Virus record (IMG/VR): IMGVR_UViG_3300006033_000016
Span: 32,001 to 96,000 of that record
Strand: one strand, 5' to 3'
DNA length: 64,000 nt
Source: a virus
In this document: one piece after another, positions 16,558-44,556 of the stretch
Layout of the letters: every line of letters begins with the position of its first letter
How positions within the stretch are numbered: the first letter of the stretch is position 1
Program-made: the position numbers and the translations under genes
The notes under the pieces: model-generated
Database searches by the model: none
What the model was told of the DNA's origin: nothing
The model's input: only the letters and a program-made list of their open reading frames with translations

Positions 16558-18183
16558 TCAGTCCACTTGCATGGACTCTATTCTCTCAACCCAAAAGCTG
16601 GAGTCTGACCCCTGGGCGAAAGCAGAGACTACCTCAAACACGCTGTCAGAAAAACCGCCAATGTTGAGAACGGAGTTCCGCTCATCGGCGACTTGAGTCG
16701 TGGCATACGGCTGAATGTCGATGCAAACCAGCTTGCAGTCAGGGTTCTTCGCCTTGATGCGCTGCCAGCCAGCCTCAGAGGCGGTGGAAGCCCTACCCCA
16801 AGAAGAGACGGGTCTATCTAGCCACGATTCGTTGTCCGATACAATGATGATAACATCAGCCTTCTTGCCTTGAAGATGCTCAAAGCAGAGCGATACAGTG
16901 GTACCACCGCCACCAAATGAGGCCAACTTCTTCGCATTTGTCATAACCGAATCTCTTGGGTTTAGAGAAGCGGCGTGCATACGCGTGTCAAAAGGAAGCA
17001 CGTTGGCAGTGGGTGACGTACGAAGAATTGATGCTGAAACAAGCGCAGCAACATCAATACAACGGACACCAGTAGTAGCGCCCTTACGATGGCCTGTCAC
17101 TGGGCTGCTCATGGAGCCAGATACGTCAGGAAATACCCATACGTTCCCAGAGAGCGGAGGAACATTCTTGGTAGCTATCTCCATAGCATCCTGAAGCGCC
17201 AGTTTCAGTGGCATGGGGATATCCGAAGACGCCTCAGTAGCCTTGTACGCCATCAGAAGTTGATACGGGAATACTCTGGAACTAGAGATTTCTTTCTCGT
17301 CCCTAAGCTTGTCCGCCAGCTTTGACACTACGTCCGCATTCTTTAGCACACCATGGCGCGCAAAAGTGTTTAGATTCATACGAACAAAGTGCCAGCCACC
17401 GTTCAATGCAATCTCGGTCCACTGCTTTGTGTCCAGGTCCAAAGAAGTAAGCAACTGGAAGGGAACCTTGGGTACAGATGCTTTCTTGGGATTGGCCTTG
17501 AAAGCCTCAAACTCCCGAATAGAGTCAGGAAGAGTGGAAGCGATTCTTGCACCTTCTTTACCCAGAAGGTAATTGAAGGTGGCATGCTTCGCTGCATCAG
17601 ACCCAGACTTAGGATGTGCCAACTTAATGACATCCACCAAAGAAGGATCGTTGCCTACGGAATCACGAAAGATTTGGTCAGCAGTTCTGCGGTCAAACCA
17701 ATTGTTGATCACGCTCTTGCCCATGGTGCCGAGGCTCTTCCGCCCCGTAACACCAGATCGAACTACCTGCACGAAGTTTCGGAGCATCTTTGCGTTGTCA
17801 ATGACAATCGGAAAAACGGTACGAAACAAGCGGGAGGCCTCCACATCATTGTTGCCGGCACGAGCAAAAAGAACAGCCACCAAAAGGGCAGGCATGTCTT
17901 TCATGAAGGCAGACCTCCTGGAGTAAATGGCGGTCTTGGCAAGGAAGACGTTGTCCACCTTGGATGCCAGCTCCAGAGTCTTCGTCAACTGGTCCGAAGC
18001 AGAAGCGTAGTACGTGTTGCTGAAGGTGCCTGTGCAGGCATATTGCGCAAGGGCGGCACGATTTGTGAGCGGGTAAGCCAGACCTCCCGCTTCATTTCGA
18101 GTAACCTTTCCCTTAGAATCTAGGGGAACGGCCCTCGGCCTCTTACCTGCCGTAGCACCACCAAAAATAGACTTATTAGCCAT
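16558..18183 (-). CDS. rsr: Ro60-related RNA-binding protein (TROVE + vWA)
   Basis: NEAGGLAY, MKDMPALL, DVIKLAHP, RMNLNTFARHG, VFPYQLL, MIDAS DVSGSMS, GGGT, SDNESW. Confidence 0.96.
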   Translation of the reverse strand: MANKSIFGGATAGKRPRAVPLDSKGKVTRNEAGGLAYPLTNRAALAQYACTGTFSNTYYASASDQLTKTLELASKVDNVFLAKTAIYSRRSAFMKDMPALLVAVLFARAGNNDVEASRLFRTVFPIVIDNAKMLRNFVQVVRSGVTGRKSLGTMGKSVINNWFDRRTADQIFRDSVGNDPSLVDVIKLAHPKSGSDAAKHATFNYLLGKEGARIASTLPDSIREFEAFKANPKKASVPKVPFQLLTSLDLDTKQWTEIALNGGWHFVRMNLNTFARHGVLKNADVVSKLADKLRDEKEISSSRVFPYQLLMAYKATEASSDIPMPLKLALQDAMEIATKNVPPLSGNVWVFPDVSGSMSSPVTGHRKGATTGVRCIDVAALVSASILRTSPTANVLPFDTRMHAASLNPRDSVMTNAKKLASFGGGGTTVSLCFEHLQGKKADVIIIVSDNESWLDRPVSSWGRASTASEAGWQRIKAKNPDCKLVCIDIQPYATTQVADERNSVLNIGGFSDSVFEVVSAFAQGSDSSFWVERIESMQVD

Positions 18184-18877: not shown

Positions 18878-18885
18878 AAACATAT

Positions 18886-19009
18886 GTGCTGACAGAATTG
18901 AAAAAGACGTAGTTACTGATGTCCTTCCATTAGACTAGATCTCCGGAGAGACCTCGGGAGTCGAACCCGAATCCCCAGTTTGGATTGTAGTCTTTCTCGC
19001 ATTCAGCAC
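18886..19009 (-). ncRNA. Y RNA-like (YrlA-type) RNA 2
   Basis: stem GTGCTGA/TCAGCAC; T arm TCGGG-TTCGACT-CCCGA, acceptor hairpin, then D arm TAGTCTAATGGAAGGAC (T before D). Confidence 0.88.
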
Positions 19010-20186: not shown

Positions 20187-22379
20187 TCATGACATATCCT
20201 CTTCCATCCTAAAGCCTATTCCAACAGGAAATCTTGGGATTCCGTCATCTGTGAGATCGAAGTACTTTACCTTCAACAAGCACCCCACATAAGATTCGGC
20301 TTCTTGCAGAAGTCTTTTTCGCTCTTCCATCGAGCCCATGGATACCACCTGAAAGGTGTTATCTCCAGCTTTACAGATCCATACAGCACAGTCAGCAAAC
20401 TTGCCCTTGCCCGTAGTATACCCTACAACCTCATACTCCGAGTCATTAAAGGATTTGACCTTGAGTAATCTCTTGGACCTATAAGCAAACTGATATTTGC
20501 TATCATCGTACATCCTGACGATGGCTCCCTCGTACCCTTTCGAGACTACCTTATTGTGGATCCTAAGGATTTCGTCTTCGTTGTGAGCCTCATAAGTCTC
20601 GACCAAATGAACAACGTCCCCTAATCTATGGGAGGATGTGTTAAAGAAAGCGTATAGGTGGTGATACCTGTCAACCCAGCTGGCGCTTCGGTCATTAAGC
20701 AGCACACAGTCGTACACATGATATTGTATCTTGCTTGTGTTCGCTTGTAACTTCTTCACCCACGAAGTAATGGTCTGAAACCCGACTCCGTGCAAGTAAA
20801 GCTCCCCGTCTAAAACTAGATTCGGAGGGAGGACGTTCTTCAGAACAGAAATTATGTGAGGACAGTTGTACTCCTTCCCTCCTCGGGAAAGGAGCTTCAA
20901 GTCTTCTCCGTCCCAGTAAGCAAGAGCCCTACAATTATGGATAACATGTCCATTCGCCACATATGTGTGGTTGTCTTCAACCTCGATGTCATATTTAGCA
21001 GCAACAGGCATGAACTTAGCGTGCCTCACATGGAATCGCTGCCAGACAGGTCCTTTTGTTACAGGTCTTACATACCCTTCAGTCGGGAAGTAAAACTTGT
21101 ATTCAACACCCTTGCAGTGCTTTGTTCTTAACTTGTTCAAGATCCAAAGAGTGTCCTTGGTACTAAAGCAAAGAAACTTTCCAGGGACATTACCGGTGTC
21201 CTCTACTACCTTGTCTGTGTACACAGAAGGAGTACAATCCCACTCTGATCTAAAGTATTTCCTGTATTCCTCGATCTGATCCTCTGAAGAGGAGTGAGTG
21301 TGCAAGTATAAACGAGGCGTGGTTGGGTCTCCATTATTATTCTGTATGGAACCATCATCACCGATCCACAATGCCAAGGCTTCTGGGGAAAGAAGCTCAC
21401 GTAAGGTTTCGTGATACACTACCTTACGTTTTCCAACATTAGGTGAGTGACCTGTGTGATAAAACCTAGATATAGGGAATGTGGACGAAGTGAGAGCGGA
21501 AGAAATGAACGCCTTCCCTCTGGATCCAAATCCAGAAGTGTACGTTACAGACGAGCCAGTGAGCCCTAAAAGGCTCTTCTTGAATTCAAAGAATTCTTTG
21601 TTTGTATGAGCGAACTTTGACCTGTATGATGTCCCAGACCCACGTTTTTCCACGACCAGCATAGAATCACCCAGGAGGGTCCCAGCCAGCAAAGAGTTGA
21701 AGTACGAACTGTCGTCAAAAGAAAGTATTAGATCGCATTTAGGGTCTAGGTCTCGGGCTTCCTTCCATCCAGATGGAGTGAGAAACTTATGATCGCTAGT
21801 GCACTTAATGTGATTACCAAATTCAGGAACTACGTCTAACCAATGAGTGTGGTCCGCATACCCGTTATTGAACCAACCTACAACTCTCTTAAACTCAAAC
21901 ACCTCTTTGCTTTCATTGTAAGAGAGAACTTCTAGGGAAAGTCTCCCTTCTACAATTTCTTGGATTGTCTTTGGTCCATCTGAGGTAGTCAAGACTGTGC
22001 TACCATAGACGCAACCATCCAGTTTAGGCTGCACGTCACACGGATAGGTGTGACCGTCCTTCTTCTGACCTCTTCGCTTCTCGAATTCAGAAGCCAACAT
22101 GGGAAGAAATATCTCATCATTTTTGGCTTCATCAATAGTACGACGATACTTTCTCTCTACTCGATGAGTCCACATGGACTTAGCTTCAGCAACCGCTTGT
22201 TCTTCTGGTGTGGTGGCATTGGACTTGTCCACGTTCTTGGCGTCAGCTGTCTTTCGAGCAAGCTGCTTTTTACCGTCTATTTGACCATATTCTGTGCACA
22301 CGTCAGCTCCCTCTGTCCATACTCTCCAGGAGTATAGAGCACCAGAGGAACCCTTGTGGTATAAGGTGTCAAACTGCAT
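20187..22379 (-). CDS. ATP-dependent DNA ligase interrupted by an intein
   Basis: QPKLDG|CRA, SRGGK, LDGELY, YDC, EGAIVR, LLKVK, PRFPV; start MQFD inferred (ORF track 22403). Confidence 0.93.
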   Translation of the reverse strand: MQFDTLYHKGSSGALYSWRVWTEGADVCTEYGQIDGKKQLARKTADAKNVDKSNATTPEEQAVAEAKSMWTHRVERKYRRTIDEAKNDEIFLPMLASEFEKRRGQKKDGHTYPCDVQPKLDGCVYGSTVLTTSDGPKTIQEIVEGRLSLEVLSYNESKEVFEFKRVVGWFNNGYADHTHWLDVVPEFGNHIKCTSDHKFLTPSGWKEARDLDPKCDLILSFDDSSYFNSLLAGTLLGDSMLVVEKRGSGTSYRSKFAHTNKEFFEFKKSLLGLTGSSVTYTSGFGSRGKAFISSALTSSTFPISRFYHTGHSPNVGKRKVVYHETLRELLSPEALALWIGDDGSIQNNNGDPTTPRLYLHTHSSSEDQIEEYRKYFRSEWDCTPSVYTDKVVEDTGNVPGKFLCFSTKDTLWILNKLRTKHCKGVEYKFYFPTEGYVRPVTKGPVWQRFHVRHAKFMPVAAKYDIEVEDNHTYVANGHVIHNCRALAYWDGEDLKLLSRGGKEYNCPHIISVLKNVLPPNLVLDGELYLHGVGFQTITSWVKKLQANTSKIQYHVYDCVLLNDRSASWVDRYHHLYAFFNTSSHRLGDVVHLVETYEAHNEDEILRIHNKVVSKGYEGAIVRMYDDSKYQFAYRSKRLLKVKSFNDSEYEVVGYTTGKGKFADCAVWICKAGDNTFQVVSMGSMEERKRLLQEAESYVGCLLKVKYFDLTDDGIPRFPVGIGFRMEEDMS
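20934..22013 (-). mobile_element. intein with LAGLIDADG endonuclease (360 aa)
   Basis: starts CVYGST, block B CTSDHKFLT, GTLLGDS and LWIGDDGS, ends YDIEVEDNHTYVANGHVIHN followed by Cys. Confidence 0.93.
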
Positions 22380-23834
22380 CAAAGAGGGTCCTTTTCCACA
22401 CACTCAGGGCACAGGATAGATACCGCGTCATAGTATGGAATAGTATTTGTATACCTAAACTTTGAGTCAACGAAATATCCATATCTTTCTTTCCACATCC
22501 ATCCGGCAGGAAGAGTCAAGTTATGGTGTTTCGTGTCCTCAGGCTGAAGTGGTCTGACCTCTCCGACAAAAACTTTCATATCCGCTTGTGCGGCGCACCT
22601 GTGGCATTCCACAGTCATGTGGCAGTAGAACATCAGCGATGCGCAGATATGAGAGTCAAAGCTAGACTGCTTAGATGTATGCGAGAAACATCATCAGAGG
22701 TTAGCCTGGAGAGCTTGTCTTTTATTTCAGGGTTCGCGCAGGCCACCTCTACCGCTCGGCCCGGTTTGGGTCTTCTGCTGTCGCAAAGAGAATCTAAGGA
22801 GATACGCTCCAAAAGCGAGGGATAGTCTGTCATCTCATACCTAATTTCTTAGAAGGTTTGTAGAGAGGCATAATTTTGGAAAATGGATTATTATCTGCCT
22901 TAGGCGCAGTAACTAGAGTGAACCTGGAGTCAAACTCCAGTCTGGGAACATACTGCAATCCCCTGCACGGACCAGGTCCCTGCAGGCCTACCGGATCGGC
23001 GCCCTCTTGGGTAACTTCCCACCAGGTGGTTCCTGACTCATCTGCCCATAATTTAGCTTCTCGGGTCATAAATCAAGTCTCTTGCGCAGGCCGCTAATCT
23101 TTAGCGATAAGTAGATACTAACCAAAACCAAGGGCGGCGATACGAGAGCTTCTACAAGGGTCATACCACCCTAAATAGGATGGGTTAGGAACAGTTCAGT
23201 ATACCCTTCTGTGACTCTTTTCTAAACCTGTCTTCAAATCGAGACCTAAGGTCAAGATACCTTTTGTAGTCCAACTCTTCTCTTTCGAGCTTCTGAGATT
23301 CGATGAAGGATTCGTAGTCGGACGTCCAGGATTCCAGGGGAATACTTTCTTTTTTCACATCTCCATGAAGAACCGTCAGTTTCTTTAGCTTGGAAAGGGT
23401 ATCTGCTGCGGACAGCTCATATCTCTTACTATCAGCCAAAATAGAAATAACCCACTCTTTAGCTGCCGCCAGGGCAGCTTTCTTTGTAGGGTATATTTCA
23501 TATTCGTAAAACGGACTGTCAGAGTTGTAAGATACAACCCATATCTTTTTGATTCTCCGTGCCATTTCACACCCCAATAGACTTGAGAAGATTCAACCAA
23601 TCCTTTACAGGATAAAAGGTGTGGCCCTCCGAAGTCCAAAAGACCCATCCTCCTGCCTTCTGGGCAAGGGATAGAAGGTGAGTCATCTCTGGATAGGATA
23701 GGGATTCAATTCGAATTTGACCTAAGGAGGCTCTCCACAGAGATACCTCCCAACCCACTACAGGGTGAGATCCATGTTCCTTTACGCACAAGCGAATTAC
23801 TTCTTCAGAGAGGAGACGTTGGTTCTCTGATAGT

Positions 23835-23999: not shown

Positions 24000-24119
24000 T
24001 GGCCCCACACCCAGGAATTGAACCCGGATTCTGCTAGTACGTAACTACAACGGACCTAAGGTGGCGTTATGAGCCCGGTTTTCAGGACTCAAGTAGCAGA
24101 AGCTCTCCAGAGATGTGGG
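24000..24119 (-). ncRNA. tRNA-like RNA with expanded anticodon-arm domain
   Basis: CCCACAT/GTGTGGG acceptor + GCCA, T arm CCGGG-TTCAATT-CCTGG, 8-bp stem TTCTGCTA/TAGCAGAA enclosing hairpins. Confidence 0.65.
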
Positions 24120-24681: not shown

Positions 24682-25034
24682 AAATCACAGCCTACCAAGA
24701 TAAGGTGTTATTCCTTCACTAGTAGCTTTTTCTTCTAAGCTCTTTAGCGTGTCGGTCTCCTCGTCAGTTAGACGACGAACCCACACTGCCCCTGCTACGA
24801 TTACACTTCCGTGTGGCGTGACACACTCATACATAGAGTTTAGGTTCTCGTCAAAAGGAAATGTAGATACGACTCTGCACAGAAAAGTAGAACCGTTGCA
24901 TGATACTGCACAGGAGTCTCCTTTTTCCAAATTTCCTACAAAGTGTGTCATAACAAATGGCACCAGGTTTCGGTTACGCTCCGAACTCTTTTGATCTTCA
25001 GTCAAACGCTTTCACTAGATTAGCTTACCTGGCG

Positions 25035-25108: not shown

Positions 25109-25111
25109 AAA

Positions 25112-25235
25112 GTGCCAACAGGATTTATAAAGACGTTTGGACTATTGCTCTACCATTTGAGCTACCACATCGTTTCCGAGGTGGACTGGAATCGAACCAG
25201 CACGCGACAGTTGTAGTCTTTACAGCATTTGGCAC
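25112..25235 (-). ncRNA. Y RNA-like (YrlA-type) RNA 4
   Basis: stem GTGCCAA/TTGGCAC, AAGAC/GTCTT; T arm CTGG-TTCGATT-CCAG, acceptor hairpin, canonical D arm TAGCTCAAATGGTAGAGC. Confidence 0.88.
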
Positions 25236-30893: not shown

Positions 30894-30967
30894 GGAGACG
30901 CGAGAGGGATTCGAACCCCCGTCCATTAGATTTGCAATCTATGTCCTAACCACTCAGACATCGCGTC
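30894..30967 (-). tRNA. tRNA-Cys(GCA)
   Basis: TAGA-TTGCAAA-TCTA, U discriminator. Confidence 0.88.
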
Positions 30968-30972
30968 AAAAT

Positions 30973-31175
30973 TAGCGCCCCTGGGAAGACTCGAACTTCC
31001 ACCACCTAAACCAAAACCTAGAATTAGGAAACGCGCTTCCCTAGCGACCCTGGTCCTCAGTGCCATTCGGTGCCTCTGCAACCTTAAGGTTTCCCTGCTT
31101 TATAGGCAGGTGCTTAGATGCCATTTACGGCCCGGCTCCGTTTTTCCGGTGTTCTTCCTTTTGAACTTCAGGGGC
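30973..31175 (-). ncRNA. tRNA-like RNA (Arg-like scaffold) with ~140-nt insert replacing the anticodon arm
   Basis: GCCCCTG/CAGGGGC acceptor, D arm GTTC-AAAAGGAA-GAAC, T arm GGAAG-TTCGAGT-CTTCC. Confidence 0.72.
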
Positions 31176-31176
31176 T

Positions 31177-31262
31177 TGGTAGGGATGGAGGGAGTCGAAC
31201 CCTCACGGCCTTTCGGCCACTGGATCCTTAGTCCAGTGCGTCTGCCATTCCGCCACATCCCT
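31177..31262 (-). tRNA. tRNA-Leu(AAG)
   Basis: CTGGA-CTAAGGA-TCCAG, long variable arm, ACCA end. Confidence 0.88.
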
Positions 31263-32170: not shown

Positions 32171-32200
32171 TTGACAATAAGTGTACACTTATGTTACACT
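32171..32200 (+). promoter_or_regulatory. sigma70-type promoter of the plus-strand protease gene
   Basis: TTGACA-18 nt-TACACT with extended -10 TG. Confidence 0.65.
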
Positions 32201-32206
32201 AGAGTA

Positions 32207-32884
32207 GTGAGGTGGGTACTCCTAATATTACCTATCTTTTTTCTTGGGTGTATTGCCCAAAGGTGCGTAGGGTACACTTTACCCAACTATCTTGGGCCAC
32301 ACAGAAGCGAAATGAGCCTAGGAGTATGTCACACCCCAAATTGGTGGAATAGGGATAGTTTCCCCTTACAGATATTCATACAGGCAAACATGCCTGATAA
32401 TTACGTCGTCAGCATTGATAAGGCCGTAACACGTTGGAATAACGCTCTAGGAAGAGAGTTTTTGGTTATTAACCGAGAAGTATTCCCTGCTCCTCTCCCG
32501 ATAGAACGTGGAGTAATACACTTCAGCTACGCAGATTTAGAGGATGCCAGCGAAGATTACAGAAAACTAGGAGAGGCCAGACGAAACGTATCACGAAGTA
32601 CGGGAGAAGTACGGAGTGTACTAATCACACTAGATGTAGACATCTCTGAGAGATATATGGTGTCGACTGTAGTGCATGAATTAGGTCATGCCTTGGGCCT
32701 GCGCCATGACGAGTCATCTCCAAGAAGTATCATGTATCCAACAATGTGGGACAGGAATCAAATCATCTTTGAGGAAGATGTTGAGGCAGTTCGTGCGCAA
32801 CTACCAATAGAGGAACTGGAAGAGATAAGAGTAGAAGTGGACCTCACTTTGGCATGCTACGAGCAGGATTTCCTACTACAATAA
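32207..32884 (+). CDS. matrixin/metzincin zinc metalloprotease, exported or lipoprotein
   Basis: HELGHALGLRH, Met-turn SIMYP, hydrophobic N-terminus with LGC; GTG start inferred from promoter position. Confidence 0.88.
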   Translation: MRWVLLILPIFFLGCIAQRCVGYTLPNYLGPHRSEMSLGVCHTPNWWNRDSFPLQIFIQANMPDNYVVSIDKAVTRWNNALGREFLVINREVFPAPLPIERGVIHFSYADLEDASEDYRKLGEARRNVSRSTGEVRSVLITLDVDISERYMVSTVVHELGHALGLRHDESSPRSIMYPTMWDRNQIIFEEDVEAVRAQLPIEELEEIRVEVDLTLACYEQDFLLQ

Positions 32885-37178: not shown

Positions 37179-37360
37179 GGGTCTCCAAGATTAGAGAATA
37201 GACTAACGAAGGGATTGAGGGGTACTAGCCTCTTCCAGTTGGGCTACCTCCCCATAAAATGGCGGGGAGGGCAGGATTCGAACCTGCACCCGATCGTACC
37301 CATATTCAAGTTGAACTTGAACTTGTTCTCTTTCCCTAACTCAAGTCCCATGGACTTGAG
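37179..37360 (-). ncRNA. circularly permuted tRNA-like RNA A
   Basis: T arm GCAGG-TTCGAAT-CCTGC, CCTCCCC-GCCATTTTAT-GGGGAGG, D arm TAGCCCAACTGGAAGAGGC, stems GGGTAC/GTACCC and GAGAA/TTCTC. Confidence 0.78.
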
Positions 37361-38195: not shown

Positions 38196-38272
38196 TGGCG
38201 CGTCCGGTAGGAATCGAACCTACAACCTCTGATTTCGTAGACCAGTTCTCTATCCGATTGAGATACAGACGC
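38196..38272 (-). tRNA. tRNA-Arg(ACG)
   Basis: CTGGT-CTACGAA-ATCAG, GCCA end. Confidence 0.92.
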
Positions 38273-43533: not shown

Positions 43534-44556
43534 TCATCCTTCGACCCATCCATTAAACGTAACAGCTTTTCTCATCCAGTGCTGATCTGTTTGAACATGG
43601 TTGTTCCGAACGAACTTGCCTACTAAACGACGAAACTCAGAGTATTTGAAATCTGATGCCACTCTAACAACGTAACCCTCGCATGGATCTCCGTCCAAAG
43701 AAGACACGTCGATTTCTTTGAGTACGTTTTCGTTCCAGATTCCTCGGTATAGAACAGGAACAGTGCGTAACCCAAGCATGTCAGCACATGACACAGTGTC
43801 ATCCCAAGAGAGACACACATTCCATTCATTCCATATGGAGAAAACTTGAAAGAAGTGAGATAGGTTTGTGTATGCTATGGAATGAACTGCAGTAAGGTTT
43901 TCTCCACAAACTCTCCATCTATCGGGTATATCATACCTGATCTGGGACCAAAGAGATTTGAGAAGATTCCTAGATTCATGAGGCGTGTAGGATAATGACC
44001 GTGAATGTATGTGGTCCCTATAAAGAGAGGAGTTCTCGCCATCCATTTTGGCCGTAACCACTACTTCCCTACCCTCAAACTGGCTGACTGACTCCAGCGT
44101 CTTATCATCGCTTGTAGCACCAGGCGACCATGGCAAGTGATAAGTCCTGGGGTATTTTATTATGTGAGTGAATTCGTGTAAGGAATCAGAAAGAATCTTC
44201 TGAACCTGCTCCTCAAAAAACAACTCACCCGGAGTTCTGAGCCCGGAGGATAAATACACATTGCCCCACTTATCAAATCGAGACGAGGAATCGAAATGAG
44301 GAGGCAGAATGACTTTTCTTATTCCGCACTTTTCTCTTAGAGTTTCGCAAGATACTTTTGTTTCTTCGCAAAGCAGATGACAAGAAGCACACACTGAAGC
44401 TCCGTTGTCTAGATAATACCCACCGTCAGGCCATAGCTTGCGCTCTATAATGTGATGGGCGTCAACAGCAGGACTAGAACAGAGAACGCACCTATGAGAG
44501 TCACGGGTAAAAACCTGTGACTTAAATTCTTCTCGTGTCAGTAGCTGGGATGACAT
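43534..44556 (-). CDS. HNH-like domain fused to ATP-dependent RNA ligase
   Basis: N-terminal CVLC...DAHHIIER...VCASCH; C-terminal KYPRTYHLPWS, KMDGEN, GEN, EGYVVR, KFVR. Confidence 0.85.
   Translation of the reverse strand: MSSQLLTREEFKSQVFTRDSHRCVLCSSPAVDAHHIIERKLWPDGGYYLDNGASVCASCHLLCEETKVSCETLREKCGIRKVILPPHFDSSSRFDKWGNVYLSSGLRTPGELFFEEQVQKILSDSLHEFTHIIKYPRTYHLPWSPGATSDDKTLESVSQFEGREVVVTAKMDGENSSLYRDHIHSRSLSYTPHESRNLLKSLWSQIRYDIPDRWRVCGENLTAVHSIAYTNLSHFFQVFSIWNEWNVCLSWDDTVSCADMLGLRTVPVLYRGIWNENVLKEIDVSSLDGDPCEGYVVRVASDFKYSEFRRLVGKFVRNNHVQTDQHWMRKAVTFNGWVEG

What the first reader, a model, noticed from the sequence alone, without database searches (positions are those of the whole stretch)
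30973..31175. 203-nt giant tRNA-like RNA with a multi-hairpin insert
Seen: intact acceptor, D and T arms of Arg-like type, but about 140 nt with hairpins (GCCG-TAAA-TGGC, CCTGC-CTATAAA-GCAGG, AACCTTAAGGTT) replaces the anticodon arm. It sits tightly between tRNA-Leu(AAG) and tRNA-Cys, and ends GCTA, like the ACTA end of the split Ala. The insert is short for a group I intron. With 24000..24119 it suggests a class of tRNA-scaffolded cargo RNAs.
Basis: partly seen in the sequence, partly recalled or inferred. Interest (0 to 1): 0.72.

Follow-up and report, generated by a model that had tools for sequence, protein, structure and literature searches.

The report
tRNA-shaped RNA carrying a conserved domain
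This 203-base gene in a giant phage's tRNA cluster makes an RNA with the body of a tRNA but no anticodon and a large, highly conserved extra domain; it belongs to a widespread family in phages and bacteria that I found in no catalogue or paper, and its function is still unknown.

Summary
The feature is real. On the minus strand (31175 to 30973) lies one RNA gene, 1 nt after tRNA-Leu(AAG) and 5 nt before tRNA-Cys. Its acceptor, D and T arms are intact. It matches no Rfam family, intron or tmRNA model.

I found 61 distinct relatives of 155-270 nt: 20 from phage or viral records, including unannotated gaps in cultured Streptomyces phages, and 41 from bacterial genomes of five phyla. Covariation supports every variable helix (94.9% of cells paired; 0 of 500 shuffles as good).

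- A 4-bp hairpin with an A-rich 10-nt loop sits where the anticodon arm belongs.
- The large domain sits at the variable-arm position.
- That domain is a stalk ending in a four-way junction with two almost invariant hairpins.
- The 27-codon ORF is not conserved.

Function is inferred only. The RNA is probably cut out and handled like a tRNA, and the conserved domain probably docks a partner in the tRNA damage and repair network. It lies directly after rtcB in 6 bacterial tRNA arrays and beside Ro60 in a few phages. However, 39 of 49 carrier bacteria have no detectable Ro60.

Earlier notes of this scan describe what is probably the same family on other DNA and read it as a Ro60 partner. My counts weaken that reading.

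The parts
30973..31175 (-). Whole RNA gene, 203 nt (RNA nt 1 = 31175). The mature RNA probably ends at discriminator G200 (30976) plus an added CCA.
   Evidence: Family models R1 213 bits and R2 166 bits.
31169..31175 (-). Acceptor stem, 5' strand GCCCCUG (nt 1-7)
   Evidence: Pairs with nt 193-199. In the family 100% of cells are paired and 7 of 7 pairs show double changes.
30977..30983 (-). Acceptor stem, 3' strand CAGGGGC (nt 193-199)
31151..31166 (-). D arm: GUUC, loop AAAAGGAA, GAAC (nt 10-25)
   Evidence: 94.8% paired, 4 of 4 pairs covary. G18 is G in 59 of 61 and G19 in 54 of 61.
31132..31149 (-). H1: hairpin at the anticodon-arm position, CCGG / loop AAAAACGGAG / CCGG (nt 27-44). It has no 7-nt anticodon loop.
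   Evidence: 97.8% paired, 4 of 4 pairs covary. AAA(A)CG is present in this stretch in 54 of 61 members. Raw sequences.
31120..31131 (-). H2: small hairpin GCC-GUAAAU-GGC (nt 45-56), absent from the 155-158-nt members
   Evidence: 2 modelled pairs, 95.8% paired.
31004..31119 (-). Large domain at the variable-arm position (nt 57-172): stalk plus four-way junction
31114..31119 (-). Base helix of the domain, 5' strand AUCUAA (nt 57-62), pairing with UUAGGU (nt 167-172, 31004-31009)
   Evidence: Family base helices 85.8% and 85.7% paired, 8 of 8 pairs covary. Pairing in the window checked.
31094..31110 (-). H3: variable hairpin CCUGC-CUAUAAA-GCAGG (nt 66-82)
   Evidence: 87.6% paired, 6 of 6 pairs covary. 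Absent from the minimal members. Its stem resembles the anticodon stem of tRNA-Thr(UGU) genes of other phages.
31087..31091 (-). P-c, 5' strand AACCU (nt 85-89), pairing with AGGUU (nt 157-161, 31015-31019). This helix closes the four-way junction.
   Evidence: 95.8% paired, 5 of 5 pairs covary with 4-5 pair types each.
31069..31083 (-). P-a: nearly invariant hairpin GGUUGC-AGAG-GCACC (nt 93-107)
   Evidence: GGUUGCNGANGCACC is present in 59 of 61 members, but most members were found with this motif. No covariation is possible.
31045..31065 (-). P11: variable stem-loop UGGCACUG-AGGAC-CAGGGUCG (nt 111-131)
   Evidence: 95.1% paired, 7 of 7 pairs covary.
31027..31041 (-). P-b: nearly invariant hairpin GGGAA-GCGCG-UUUCC (nt 135-149)
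   Evidence: GGGAAGCGCG is present in 59 of 61 members, with the same ascertainment caveat. 92.8% paired, no double changes.
30984..31000 (-). T arm GGAAG-UUCGAGU-CUUCC (nt 176-192). U175 before it is the nt-48 partner of A15.
   Evidence: 100% paired, 4 of 5 pairs covary. U54, C56 and A58 are the same in 61 of 61. The 15-48 pair is A-U or G-C in 55 of 61; 0 of 10000 shuffles reach that.
30973..30976 (-). Discriminator G200 and CUA (nt 201-203)
   Evidence: Discriminator in the family: G 19, A 28, U 13, C 1. Tail CCA in 14 of 61, CUA in 4 of 61.
31177..31262 (-). Upstream neighbour tRNA-Leu(AAG) with encoded CCA; 1-nt spacer to the RNA
30894..30967 (-). Downstream neighbour tRNA-Cys(GCA); 5-nt spacer

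Best explanation
This is a gene for a non-decoding, tRNA-shaped structured RNA. It belongs to a widespread family that is absent from Rfam 15 and that I did not find in print.

Shown:
- It has a true tRNA frame: a 7-bp acceptor stem, D arm, T arm and a covarying 15-48 pair.
- A 4-bp hairpin with an A-rich 9-14-nt loop stands where the anticodon arm belongs.
- A domain of about 117 nt sits at the variable-arm position. It is a covarying stalk that ends in a four-way junction with two almost invariant hairpins, GGUUGC-NGAN-GCACC and GGGAA-GCGCG-UUUCC.

Inferred:
- The RNA is transcribed with the neighbouring tRNAs.
- RNase P and 3' trimming release it, and it is CCA-tailed and stabilised like a tRNA. 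This makes it a natural 'tRNA scaffold'.
- The invariant junction domain is the working part. It probably docks a conserved protein or RNA partner of the tRNA damage and repair network (RtcB, Ro60 and associated factors). It does not decode and it is not an intron.

My confidence that it is a real, conserved, non-decoding tRNA-shaped ncRNA is about 0.9. My confidence that it works as a docking or adaptor RNA in the repair network is about 0.4. The figure below covers the whole statement.
For: Family and structure:
- Homologues were found first in relatives of this phage, then by motif scans (22 of 22 viral stretches confirmed by the model).
- 49 of the 80 listed bacterial loci are members: 46 by model R1 and 3 by eye.
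- Alignment A6 holds 61 distinct members of 155-270 nt. In it 94.9% of cells are paired and 47 of 58 pairs show double changes. The covariation score is 0.513 against 0.141 for shuffles (0 of 500 as high) and at most 0.096 for slid partners.
- tRNA tertiary signature: the 15-48 pair fits in 55 of 61, and the T-loop and G18 G19 are conserved.

Non-coding:
- The spacing between the two motifs falls in all three frames (24, 13 and 11 of 48).

tRNA-like handling:
- The spacers to the flanking tRNAs are 1 nt and 5 nt.
- CCA is encoded in 14 of 61 members.

Genomic context:
- rtcB ends 87-320 nt upstream on the same strand in 6 of 49 bacterial loci, and lies within 1.4 kb in 2 more.
- One Planctomycetota locus reads Ro60, YrlA-like RNA, this RNA, an ORF, then RtcB.
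- In phage records G036, G038 and G040, and next to a weak TROVE-like frame in G028, the RNA lies at the 5' end of the Ro60 frame. This is estimated from profile coordinates.
- This phage itself encodes Ro60, YrlA-like RNAs and an RNA ligase.
- 19 of the 49 bacterial loci hold 7-27 tRNA genes within 8 kb or less. Long tRNA arrays are reported to travel with HNH and rtcB genes (PMC8421152, passages read).
Against: - No experiment and no direct evidence exists for any partner.
- Ro60 (TROVE) is detectable in only 9-10 of 49 carrier bacterial genomes and in 10 of 22 motif-ascertained viral records.
- In the 4 bacteria with both where the RNA was placed (G076, G084, G086, G091), the RNA and Ro60 are unlinked.
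- RtcB is common anyway: 46 of 49 carriers against 10 of 14 control genomes. It is in only 4 of 26 viral records.
- The six rtcB-adjacent loci are related arrays (RtcB 61-88% identical), so they represent few independent events.
- Solitary bacterial copies have unrelated neighbours.
- The family is patchy. It was found in 7 of 61 genomes of one family with the model, and in 2 of 121 genomes of the order with the exact motif.
- The 'invariance' of the two hairpins is partly built in, because most members were found with those motifs.
- The discriminator base varies (G 19, A 28, U 13, C 1), so no single aminoacylation identity is conserved.
Confidence: 0.55

Rival explanations
1. It is a Y RNA in the strict sense. 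The large domain is the handle bound by Ro60 (Rsr), and the tRNA body is the effector module, as in YrlA but with normal strand order.
For: - This phage encodes Ro60 (phrog_850) and YrlA-like RNAs.
- In 3-4 phage records the RNA sits right at the 5' end of the Ro60 frame.
- In one Planctomycetota genome it lies between Ro60 and RtcB.
- 10 of 22 motif-ascertained viral records hold a TROVE match above the cut-off.
- Bacteria studied so far have at least two Y RNAs per Ro60 (PMC4201824, passages read).
- Earlier notes of this scan reached this reading for look-alike RNAs.
Against: - 39 of 49 carrier bacterial genomes have no TROVE match.
- 4 of 11 viral records that are at least 90% complete have none.
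- In the 4 bacteria with both where the RNA was placed, the two are unlinked.
- In this window the RNA lies 13 kb from Ro60.
- The YrlA handle (AAUGCU ... CUAC / ... CUUGU around a terminal stem) is absent, and the Rfam YrlA model does not match the RNA.
- Of the 20 Ro60-selected phage records, only 3 carry the RNA.
Confidence: 0.17
2. It is a decoy or sentinel for tRNA-targeting nucleases. The tRNA-shaped RNA would soak up, or be cut instead of, real tRNAs during phage-host conflict, and RtcB would reseal it.
For: - It lives in phage tRNA arrays and bacterial long tRNA arrays next to rtcB and HNH genes.
- Its distribution is patchy and accessory-like.
- The authors of PMC8421152 raise the idea that array tRNAs act as sponges for toxin RNases (passage read).
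Against: - The loop at the anticodon-arm position resembles no anticodon loop.
- A decoy does not explain a 117-nt domain with invariant hairpins.
- Solitary chromosomal copies sit among housekeeping genes.
Confidence: 0.12
3. It is a chargeable tRNA-like carrier. A synthetase that ignores the anticodon (as SerRS and LeuRS do with long-variable-arm tRNAs; recalled knowledge) would aminoacylate it, and it would be used on or off the ribosome, in analogy to tmRNA.
For: - The acceptor stem, elbow and 15-48 pair are intact.
- CCA is encoded in 14 of 61 members.
- The cargo leaves the body at the variable-arm position.
Against: - The discriminator varies (G 19, A 28, U 13, C 1), and the acceptor-stem pairs vary freely, so no identity set is conserved.
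- The window RNA has C3-G70, so it lacks the G3-U70 pair.
- No reading frame is conserved.
- ARAGORN calls no tmRNA.
Confidence: 0.08
4. It is an intron-containing tRNA, or a tRNA gene broken by an insertion. The extra RNA would be removed to give a working tRNA, or the gene would be dead.
For: ARAGORN with introns allowed forces a call: tRNA-Pro(AGG) with a 124-nt intron here, and tRNA-Arg(ACG) with a 128-nt intron in the relative G001.
Against: - The two forced calls disagree on anticodon and intron position.
- No intron family matches at E <= 10.
- The insert sits at the variable-arm position and is more conserved than the tRNA stems.
- Removing it would leave a 4-bp arm with a 10-nt loop.
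- 61 distinct members across phages and five bacterial phyla keep the structure through compensatory changes, which rules out a dead gene.
Confidence: 0.03

Closest known systems
YrlA-type bacterial and phage Y RNAs with Ro60/Rsr (Rfam RF02553; Chen et al. 2014, PMC4201824)
   Same: - It is a non-decoding RNA with a tRNA-like D arm, T arm, acceptor-type stem and a covarying 15-48 pair.
- It is found in phages and bacteria that carry Ro60 and RtcB genes.
- M. smegmatis YrlA is cut by RNase P and CCA-tailed (passages read).
   Different: - YrlA is circularly permuted: its ends form the Ro-binding stem. Here the ends form the acceptor stem.
- The YrlA handle motifs are absent.
- The extra domain is a 117-nt four-way junction with different invariant sequences.
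- Most bacterial carriers lack Ro60.
tmRNA (ssrA)
   Same: It has a tRNA-like acceptor and T arm joined to a large structured body that leaves the tRNA part roughly where a long variable arm would (recalled: Bessho et al. 2007). It also occurs in large phages; phage Comrade carries an annotated tmRNA 3 kb from its copy of this RNA.
   Different: - It has a real D stem.
- It has no G3-U70 pair.
- It has no conserved tag reading frame.
- It is 155-270 nt long.
- ARAGORN's tmRNA search does not detect it.
Class II tRNAs (Leu, Ser, Tyr, Sec) with long variable arms
   Same: The extra helix emerges between the anticodon arm and the T arm of an otherwise normal tRNA frame.
   Different: - The arm here is 90-200 nt with a four-way junction, not 10-20 nt.
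- The D stem has 4 bp.
- There is no 7-nt anticodon loop.
Engineered 'tRNA scaffold' for recombinant RNA (listing of PMC3753655 seen; method recalled) and the small stable RNAs of the phage T4 tRNA cluster (recalled, not checked)
   Same: A structured RNA is embedded in, or processed with, tRNAs, so that the tRNA machinery releases and stabilises it.
   Different: - The engineered scaffold puts the cargo in the anticodon stem. Here it sits at the variable-arm position, and an anticodon-position hairpin is kept.
- Homology to the T4 RNAs was not tested.

Membership tests
tRNA (Rfam RF00005) | 7-bp acceptor stem, D arm, and T arm with a UUCRANY loop | tested here: met
tRNA (Rfam RF00005) | Anticodon arm with a 5-bp stem and a 7-nt loop carrying U33 and an anticodon | tested here: not met
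   The arm has a 4-bp stem and the 10-nt loop AAAAACGGAG. The loop is 9-14 nt across the family.
tRNA (Rfam RF00005) | Score at or above the family's gathering threshold (29 bits) | tested here: not met
   No tRNA match on 30973-31175 at gathering level or at E <= 10. ARAGORN calls it only when introns are allowed.
YrlA / Y RNA (RF02553) | Terminal stem formed by the 5' and 3' ends, with the AAUGCU/CUAC and CUUGU handle | tested here: not met
   The consensus was seen. These motifs and this topology are absent here. There is no YrlA match on the RNA.
YrlA / Y RNA (RF02553) | Encoded within a few kb of Ro60 | tested here: inconclusive
   The RNA is 13 kb from Ro60 in this window. It is adjacent in 3-4 phage records and in 1 bacterium. 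39 of 49 carrier bacteria show no TROVE match.
YrlA / Y RNA (RF02553) | Bound by Ro60 | not testable with these tools
   This needs immunoprecipitation.
tmRNA | G3-U70 alanine identity pair and a tag reading frame ending in a stop codon | tested here: not met
   The window RNA has C3-G70. The frame is not conserved. ARAGORN finds no tmRNA.
Group I or group II intron in a tRNA gene | Match to an intron model; insertion in the anticodon loop | tested here: not met
   No intron family matches at E <= 10. The domain lies after a closed hairpin, at the variable-arm position.
The family defined here (models R1 and R2) | tRNA frame, A-rich hairpin after nt 26, and a junction with the GGUUGCNGANGCACC and GGGAAGCGCG hairpins | tested here: met
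   R2 scores 166.4 bits with a full-length match.

The most novel reading that the evidence does not exclude
A new, widespread class of tRNA-bodied RNAs shared by large phages and bacteria. A conserved four-way-junction module rides at the variable-arm position of a real tRNA frame, as nature's own 'tRNA scaffold'. The RNA would act as a cofactor of RNA repair: an adaptor or sensor that brings RtcB, and Ro60 where present, to damaged tRNAs, or that reports tRNA damage. It would do this independently of the known YrlA-type Y RNAs.
Probability: 0.3. Interest if true: 0.85.

Novelty: new variant of a known kind. Interest (0 to 1): 0.63.

Why it matters
Non-decoding tRNA mimics such as tmRNA and YrlA have each opened a field of RNA quality control. 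This would be a further, structurally distinct family.

- It is about 200 nt long and has strong covariation.
- It occurs in cultured Streptomyces phages, huge uncultured phages and bacteria of five phyla.
- It is missing from Rfam 15 and from genome annotations.
- Its recurrent position directly after rtcB or before Ro60 gives a concrete handle on two open questions: what bacterial RtcB and Ro60 act on, and why phages and bacterial 'L-arrays' carry tRNA-like genes that cannot decode.
- It also shows that a tRNA body can carry a large folded cargo at the variable-arm position. That is useful for RNA engineering.
- Carriers can be cultured, so the function can be tested directly.

Tried and rejected
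Searches that led nowhere:
- An exact 25-nt pattern from the T arm and acceptor found nothing in viral contigs.
- The neighbour proteins (218 aa and 136 aa) gave no related loci. The DHHA1 protein gave one locus without tRNAs.
- BLAST of the region against cultured phages first returned only the flanking tRNAs. With the RNA alone and E <= 10 it found the core in Streptomyces phages.

Models and readings I dropped:
- Rfam gave nothing on the RNA.
I rejected them for the local hairpin H1 and helices P-c and base.
- The hairpin drawn by RNAalifold just before P-a was replaced by P-c.
The motif spacing is not frame-preserving.

Associations that did not hold:
- Band-7/SPFH genes recur in 12 of 49 bacterial loci and near the copy in Comrade-like phages. 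They are absent from this phage record and from the other viral loci.
- Of the 80 listed bacterial loci, 31 have no model match. I read 18 of them by eye, and all 18 look like chance matches in other DNA, mostly high-GC coding DNA. I left all 31 out of every count.
- No CCA-adding enzyme domain is present in this 34%-complete record.

Expression:
- No RNA holder is listed for the stretch.
- Contigs of three wastewater runs labelled RNA-Seq cDNA (the tool marks two of them 'probably DNA') cover parts of the RNA with 0-4 differences. One short contig of a relative has depth 633. Whether these are RNA cannot be told, so I draw no conclusion on expression.

Literature:
- I found no description of this family. 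The two motif strings occur in no paper text.
- Passages of PMC4201824, PMC8421152 and PMC7824862 were read. Everything else was seen only as search listings.
- Supplementary files were not opened. The YrlA supplementary tables of PMC4201824 might list phage loci that bear on this.

Caveats on the counts:
- Alignment A6 contains 2 ordinary tRNA rows (L203:3684-3760 and L107:1059-1133). They count in the tRNA stems. I excluded them.
- 11 weaker members did not reach the A6 threshold: L104, L131, L191, L231, L265, L211, L214, L252, L251, L225 and L254.
- A 163-nt weak match in G012 (12.8 bits) was not followed up.
Full report
WHAT IS THERE.
The window is part of a 132,998-base IMG/VR virus record estimated to be 34% complete. 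Its closest relative is a 392-kb contig. So this is a huge phage. It carries 20-21 tRNA genes on the minus strand.

The finding lies on the minus strand from 31175 to 30973.
- tRNA-Leu(AAG) ends with an encoded CCA at 31177.
- One spacer base follows, then the RNA starts with GCCCCUG.
- The RNA ends CAGGGGC-G-CUA, and tRNA-Cys starts five bases later.

Nothing in Rfam 15 matches the RNA, either at gathering level or at E <= 10. ARAGORN calls neither a tRNA nor a tmRNA. When introns are allowed it forces 'tRNA-Pro(AGG) with a 124-nt intron'. The fold of the single sequence is no better than shuffles (z = -0.91). Everything therefore depends on relatives.

RELATIVES.
Searches with neighbouring proteins failed. 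I then used the phage's Ro60 protein (phrog_850) to collect 20 related viral records.
- BLAST found the RNA in two of them, G001 and G007.
- In these three sequences the acceptor, D and T stems all differ while staying paired.
- A covariance model built from them (R1) found a third, 270-nt copy in G009.

Two sequence blocks stood out, so I scanned whole collections with them.
- The first motif alone gave 8 true copies among 80 listed loci.
- The two-motif pattern gave 22 viral stretches, and the model confirmed all 22.
- The same pattern gave 100 stretches in bacterial genomes. Of the 80 listed, 46 have full-length model matches and 3 more have the tRNA frame by eye. I read 18 of the other 31, and all 18 are chance hits, mostly in high-GC coding DNA.

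By record title the bacterial carriers are mostly Myxococcota. They also include Steroidobacteraceae, Burkholderiales, Variovorax, two Deinococcus, one Planctomycetota and one Clostridia MAG.

Cultured Streptomyces phages carry the RNA in unannotated gaps. In Comrade it fills the 163-nt gap between two genes. In Alone3 it lies between tRNA-Asp and tRNA-Glu.

STRUCTURE.
Those helices were 85%, 56% and 75% paired. Directly after nt 26 every member has a local hairpin whose stem changes freely: CCGG/CCGG, UCGG/CCGA, CCGU/ACGG, GCCC/GGGC, CAGU/ACUG. Its loop keeps AAAA(A)CG.

I rebuilt the model with this hairpin and with helices seen in a five-sequence alignment. I then realigned the family, giving alignment A6: 63 long rows, 61 of them distinct, plus 2 tRNA rows.

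On A6 the counts are:
- 94.9% of cells are standard pairs, against 70.3% in shuffles. The best slid control reaches 49.8%.
- 47 of 58 pairs show double changes.
- The covariation score is 0.513, against 0.141 for shuffles (0 of 500 as high).

Per helix, the share of paired cells is:
- acceptor 100%
- D 94.8%
- H1 97.8%
- H2 95.8%
- base helices 85.8% and 85.7%
- H3 87.6%
- P-c 95.8%
- P11 95.1%
- T 100%

A6 was aligned to this structure, which favours it.

The tRNA tertiary pair 15-48 is A-U or G-C in 55 of 61 members, and 0 of 10,000 shuffles reach that. The T loop and G18 G19 are conserved.

The RNA is therefore a true L-shaped tRNA body.
- Its anticodon arm is replaced by a 4-bp hairpin with a 9-14-nt A-rich loop.
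- Its variable arm has grown into a stalk that ends in a four-way junction made of P-c, P-a, P11 and P-b.
- P-a (GGUUGC-NGAN-GCACC) and P-b (GGGAA-GCGCG-UUUCC) are the same in 59 of 61 members. This is partly because I searched with them.
- Seven distinct minimal members of 155-158 nt (nine rows under 175 nt were listed) lack H2 and H3. They have only a short stalk in place of the long base helix, but keep H1, P-c, P-a, P11 and P-b.

WHAT IT IS NOT.
- It is not coding. The spacing between the two motifs falls in all three frames (24, 13 and 11 of 48). The 27-codon ORF is lost even in the closest relative, which is 187 of 203 positions identical.
- It is not an intron-containing tRNA. No intron model matches, the domain is not in an anticodon loop, and removing it would leave no anticodon.
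- It is not a tmRNA. It has C3-G70, a real D stem and no conserved frame.
- It is not YrlA. The YrlA consensus has its ends in a Ro-binding stem with AAUGCU/CUAC/CUUGU motifs. This RNA lacks those, although this phage's own YrlA-like RNAs have them.
- It is not related to the 24000-24119 RNA.

CONTEXT AND LIKELY ROLE.
The tight spacing within the tRNA array, and the encoded CCA in 14 of 61 members, argue that the RNA is released and handled like a tRNA. This is an inference.

Evidence on Ro60:
- Ro60 is present in 10 of 22 motif-ascertained viral records. Among the 11 records that are at least 90% complete, it is present in 6, or 7 counting one weak match.
- In G036, G038, G040 and (weakly) G028, the RNA lies right at the start of the Ro60 frame.
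- Only 9-10 of 49 carrier bacterial genomes have any TROVE match.
- In the four bacteria with both where the RNA was placed, the two are unlinked.

Evidence on RtcB:
- In 6 of 49 bacterial loci rtcB ends 87-320 nt upstream on the same strand. Two more lie within 1.4 kb.
- One of those two is a Planctomycetota locus that reads Ro60, YrlA-like RNA, this RNA, ORF, RtcB. That mirrors the Salmonella rsr-yrlBA-rtcBA order described in PMC4201824 and PMC7790460 (passages and an abstract seen).
- The six rtcB-adjacent loci are related tRNA arrays, so they are not independent events.
- RtcB is common in any case: 46 of 49 carriers against 10 of 14 controls.

Other context:
- 19 of the 49 bacterial loci hold 7-27 tRNA genes within 8 kb or less. 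These fit the 'L-arrays' that travel with HNH and rtcB genes (PMC8421152).
- The remaining copies are mostly solitary, with at most 3 tRNA genes nearby, and sit among unrelated genes.
- The family is patchy. The model finds it in 7 of 61 genomes of one family.

My reading is that this is an accessory, horizontally mobile, tRNA-bodied RNA. Its invariant junction docks a conserved partner in the tRNA damage and repair network. Ro60 is at most one of several partners. Function remains unproven.

COMPARISON WITH EARLIER NOTES.
Earlier notes of this scan describe 212-246-nt tRNA-shaped RNAs with a large conserved arm in other phages and soil bacteria. They call them probable Ro60 partners. These are probably the same family, but I could not compare the sequences. 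My counts in bacteria weaken the Ro60-only reading. The adjacency I see in some phages agrees with it.

VERDICT.
The 'tRNA-scaffolded cargo RNA' idea is broadly right. This is a new variant of the tRNA-mimic kind, with no match in the catalogue and papers I could search.

Noticed in passing
window 24961-25033 (-): Rfam calls a tRNA here (42.5 bits), but ARAGORN does not list it. It abuts tRNA-Trp.
   Followed up: no
window 25109-25235, 18883-19009, 37202-37312 (-): There are YrlA-like matches below Rfam's gathering score (51.2, 44.3 and 28.9 bits against a threshold of 69). So the phage has its own divergent Y RNAs near Ro60 (16558-18183).
   Followed up: partly
window 20187-22403 (-): An ATP-dependent DNA ligase gene is interrupted by an intein that carries a LAGLIDADG endonuclease.
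   Followed up: no
window 43534-44556 (-): An RNA ligase (phrog_24030, E 1.9e-124) has an N-terminal HNH-like stretch. This is the HNH-Rnl2 type of fusion mentioned for jumbo phages in PMC7824862.
   Followed up: no
window 32171-32884 (+): A matrixin-like zinc metallopeptidase (Peptidase_M10, E 5e-8) sits on the plus strand inside the minus-strand tRNA region.
   Followed up: no
window 31177-31262 and 38196-38272 (-): The phage encodes A34 tRNAs, Leu(AAG) and Arg(ACG). The neighbouring tRNA-Cys has CCU in place of an encoded CCA, while the Leu and Gly tRNAs encode CCA.
   Followed up: no
L260:4190-4256 (-): There is a weak twister-sister ribozyme match (24.5 bits against 34, E 0.079) between Ro60 and the YrlA-like RNA of the Planctomycetota locus.
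   Followed up: no
G086:C1:854593-854719 (-): A 127-nt match to the family model (35.3 bits) lies about 5 kb from that genome's TROVE gene. It may be another tRNA-like RNA of the Ro60 locus.
   Followed up: no
window 31094-31110 (-), L028, L029: The H3 hairpin and its 5' flank match the anticodon-arm region of tRNA-Thr(UGU) genes of other phages at 86% over 22 nt. This hints that part of the cargo derives from a tRNA.
   Followed up: partly
L296 (Streptomyces phage Comrade) 963-1240 and 6495-8049: Comrade's copy of the RNA lies in a region that also holds an annotated tmRNA, a band-7-like protein, an RNA ligase and a polynucleotide kinase.
   Followed up: partly
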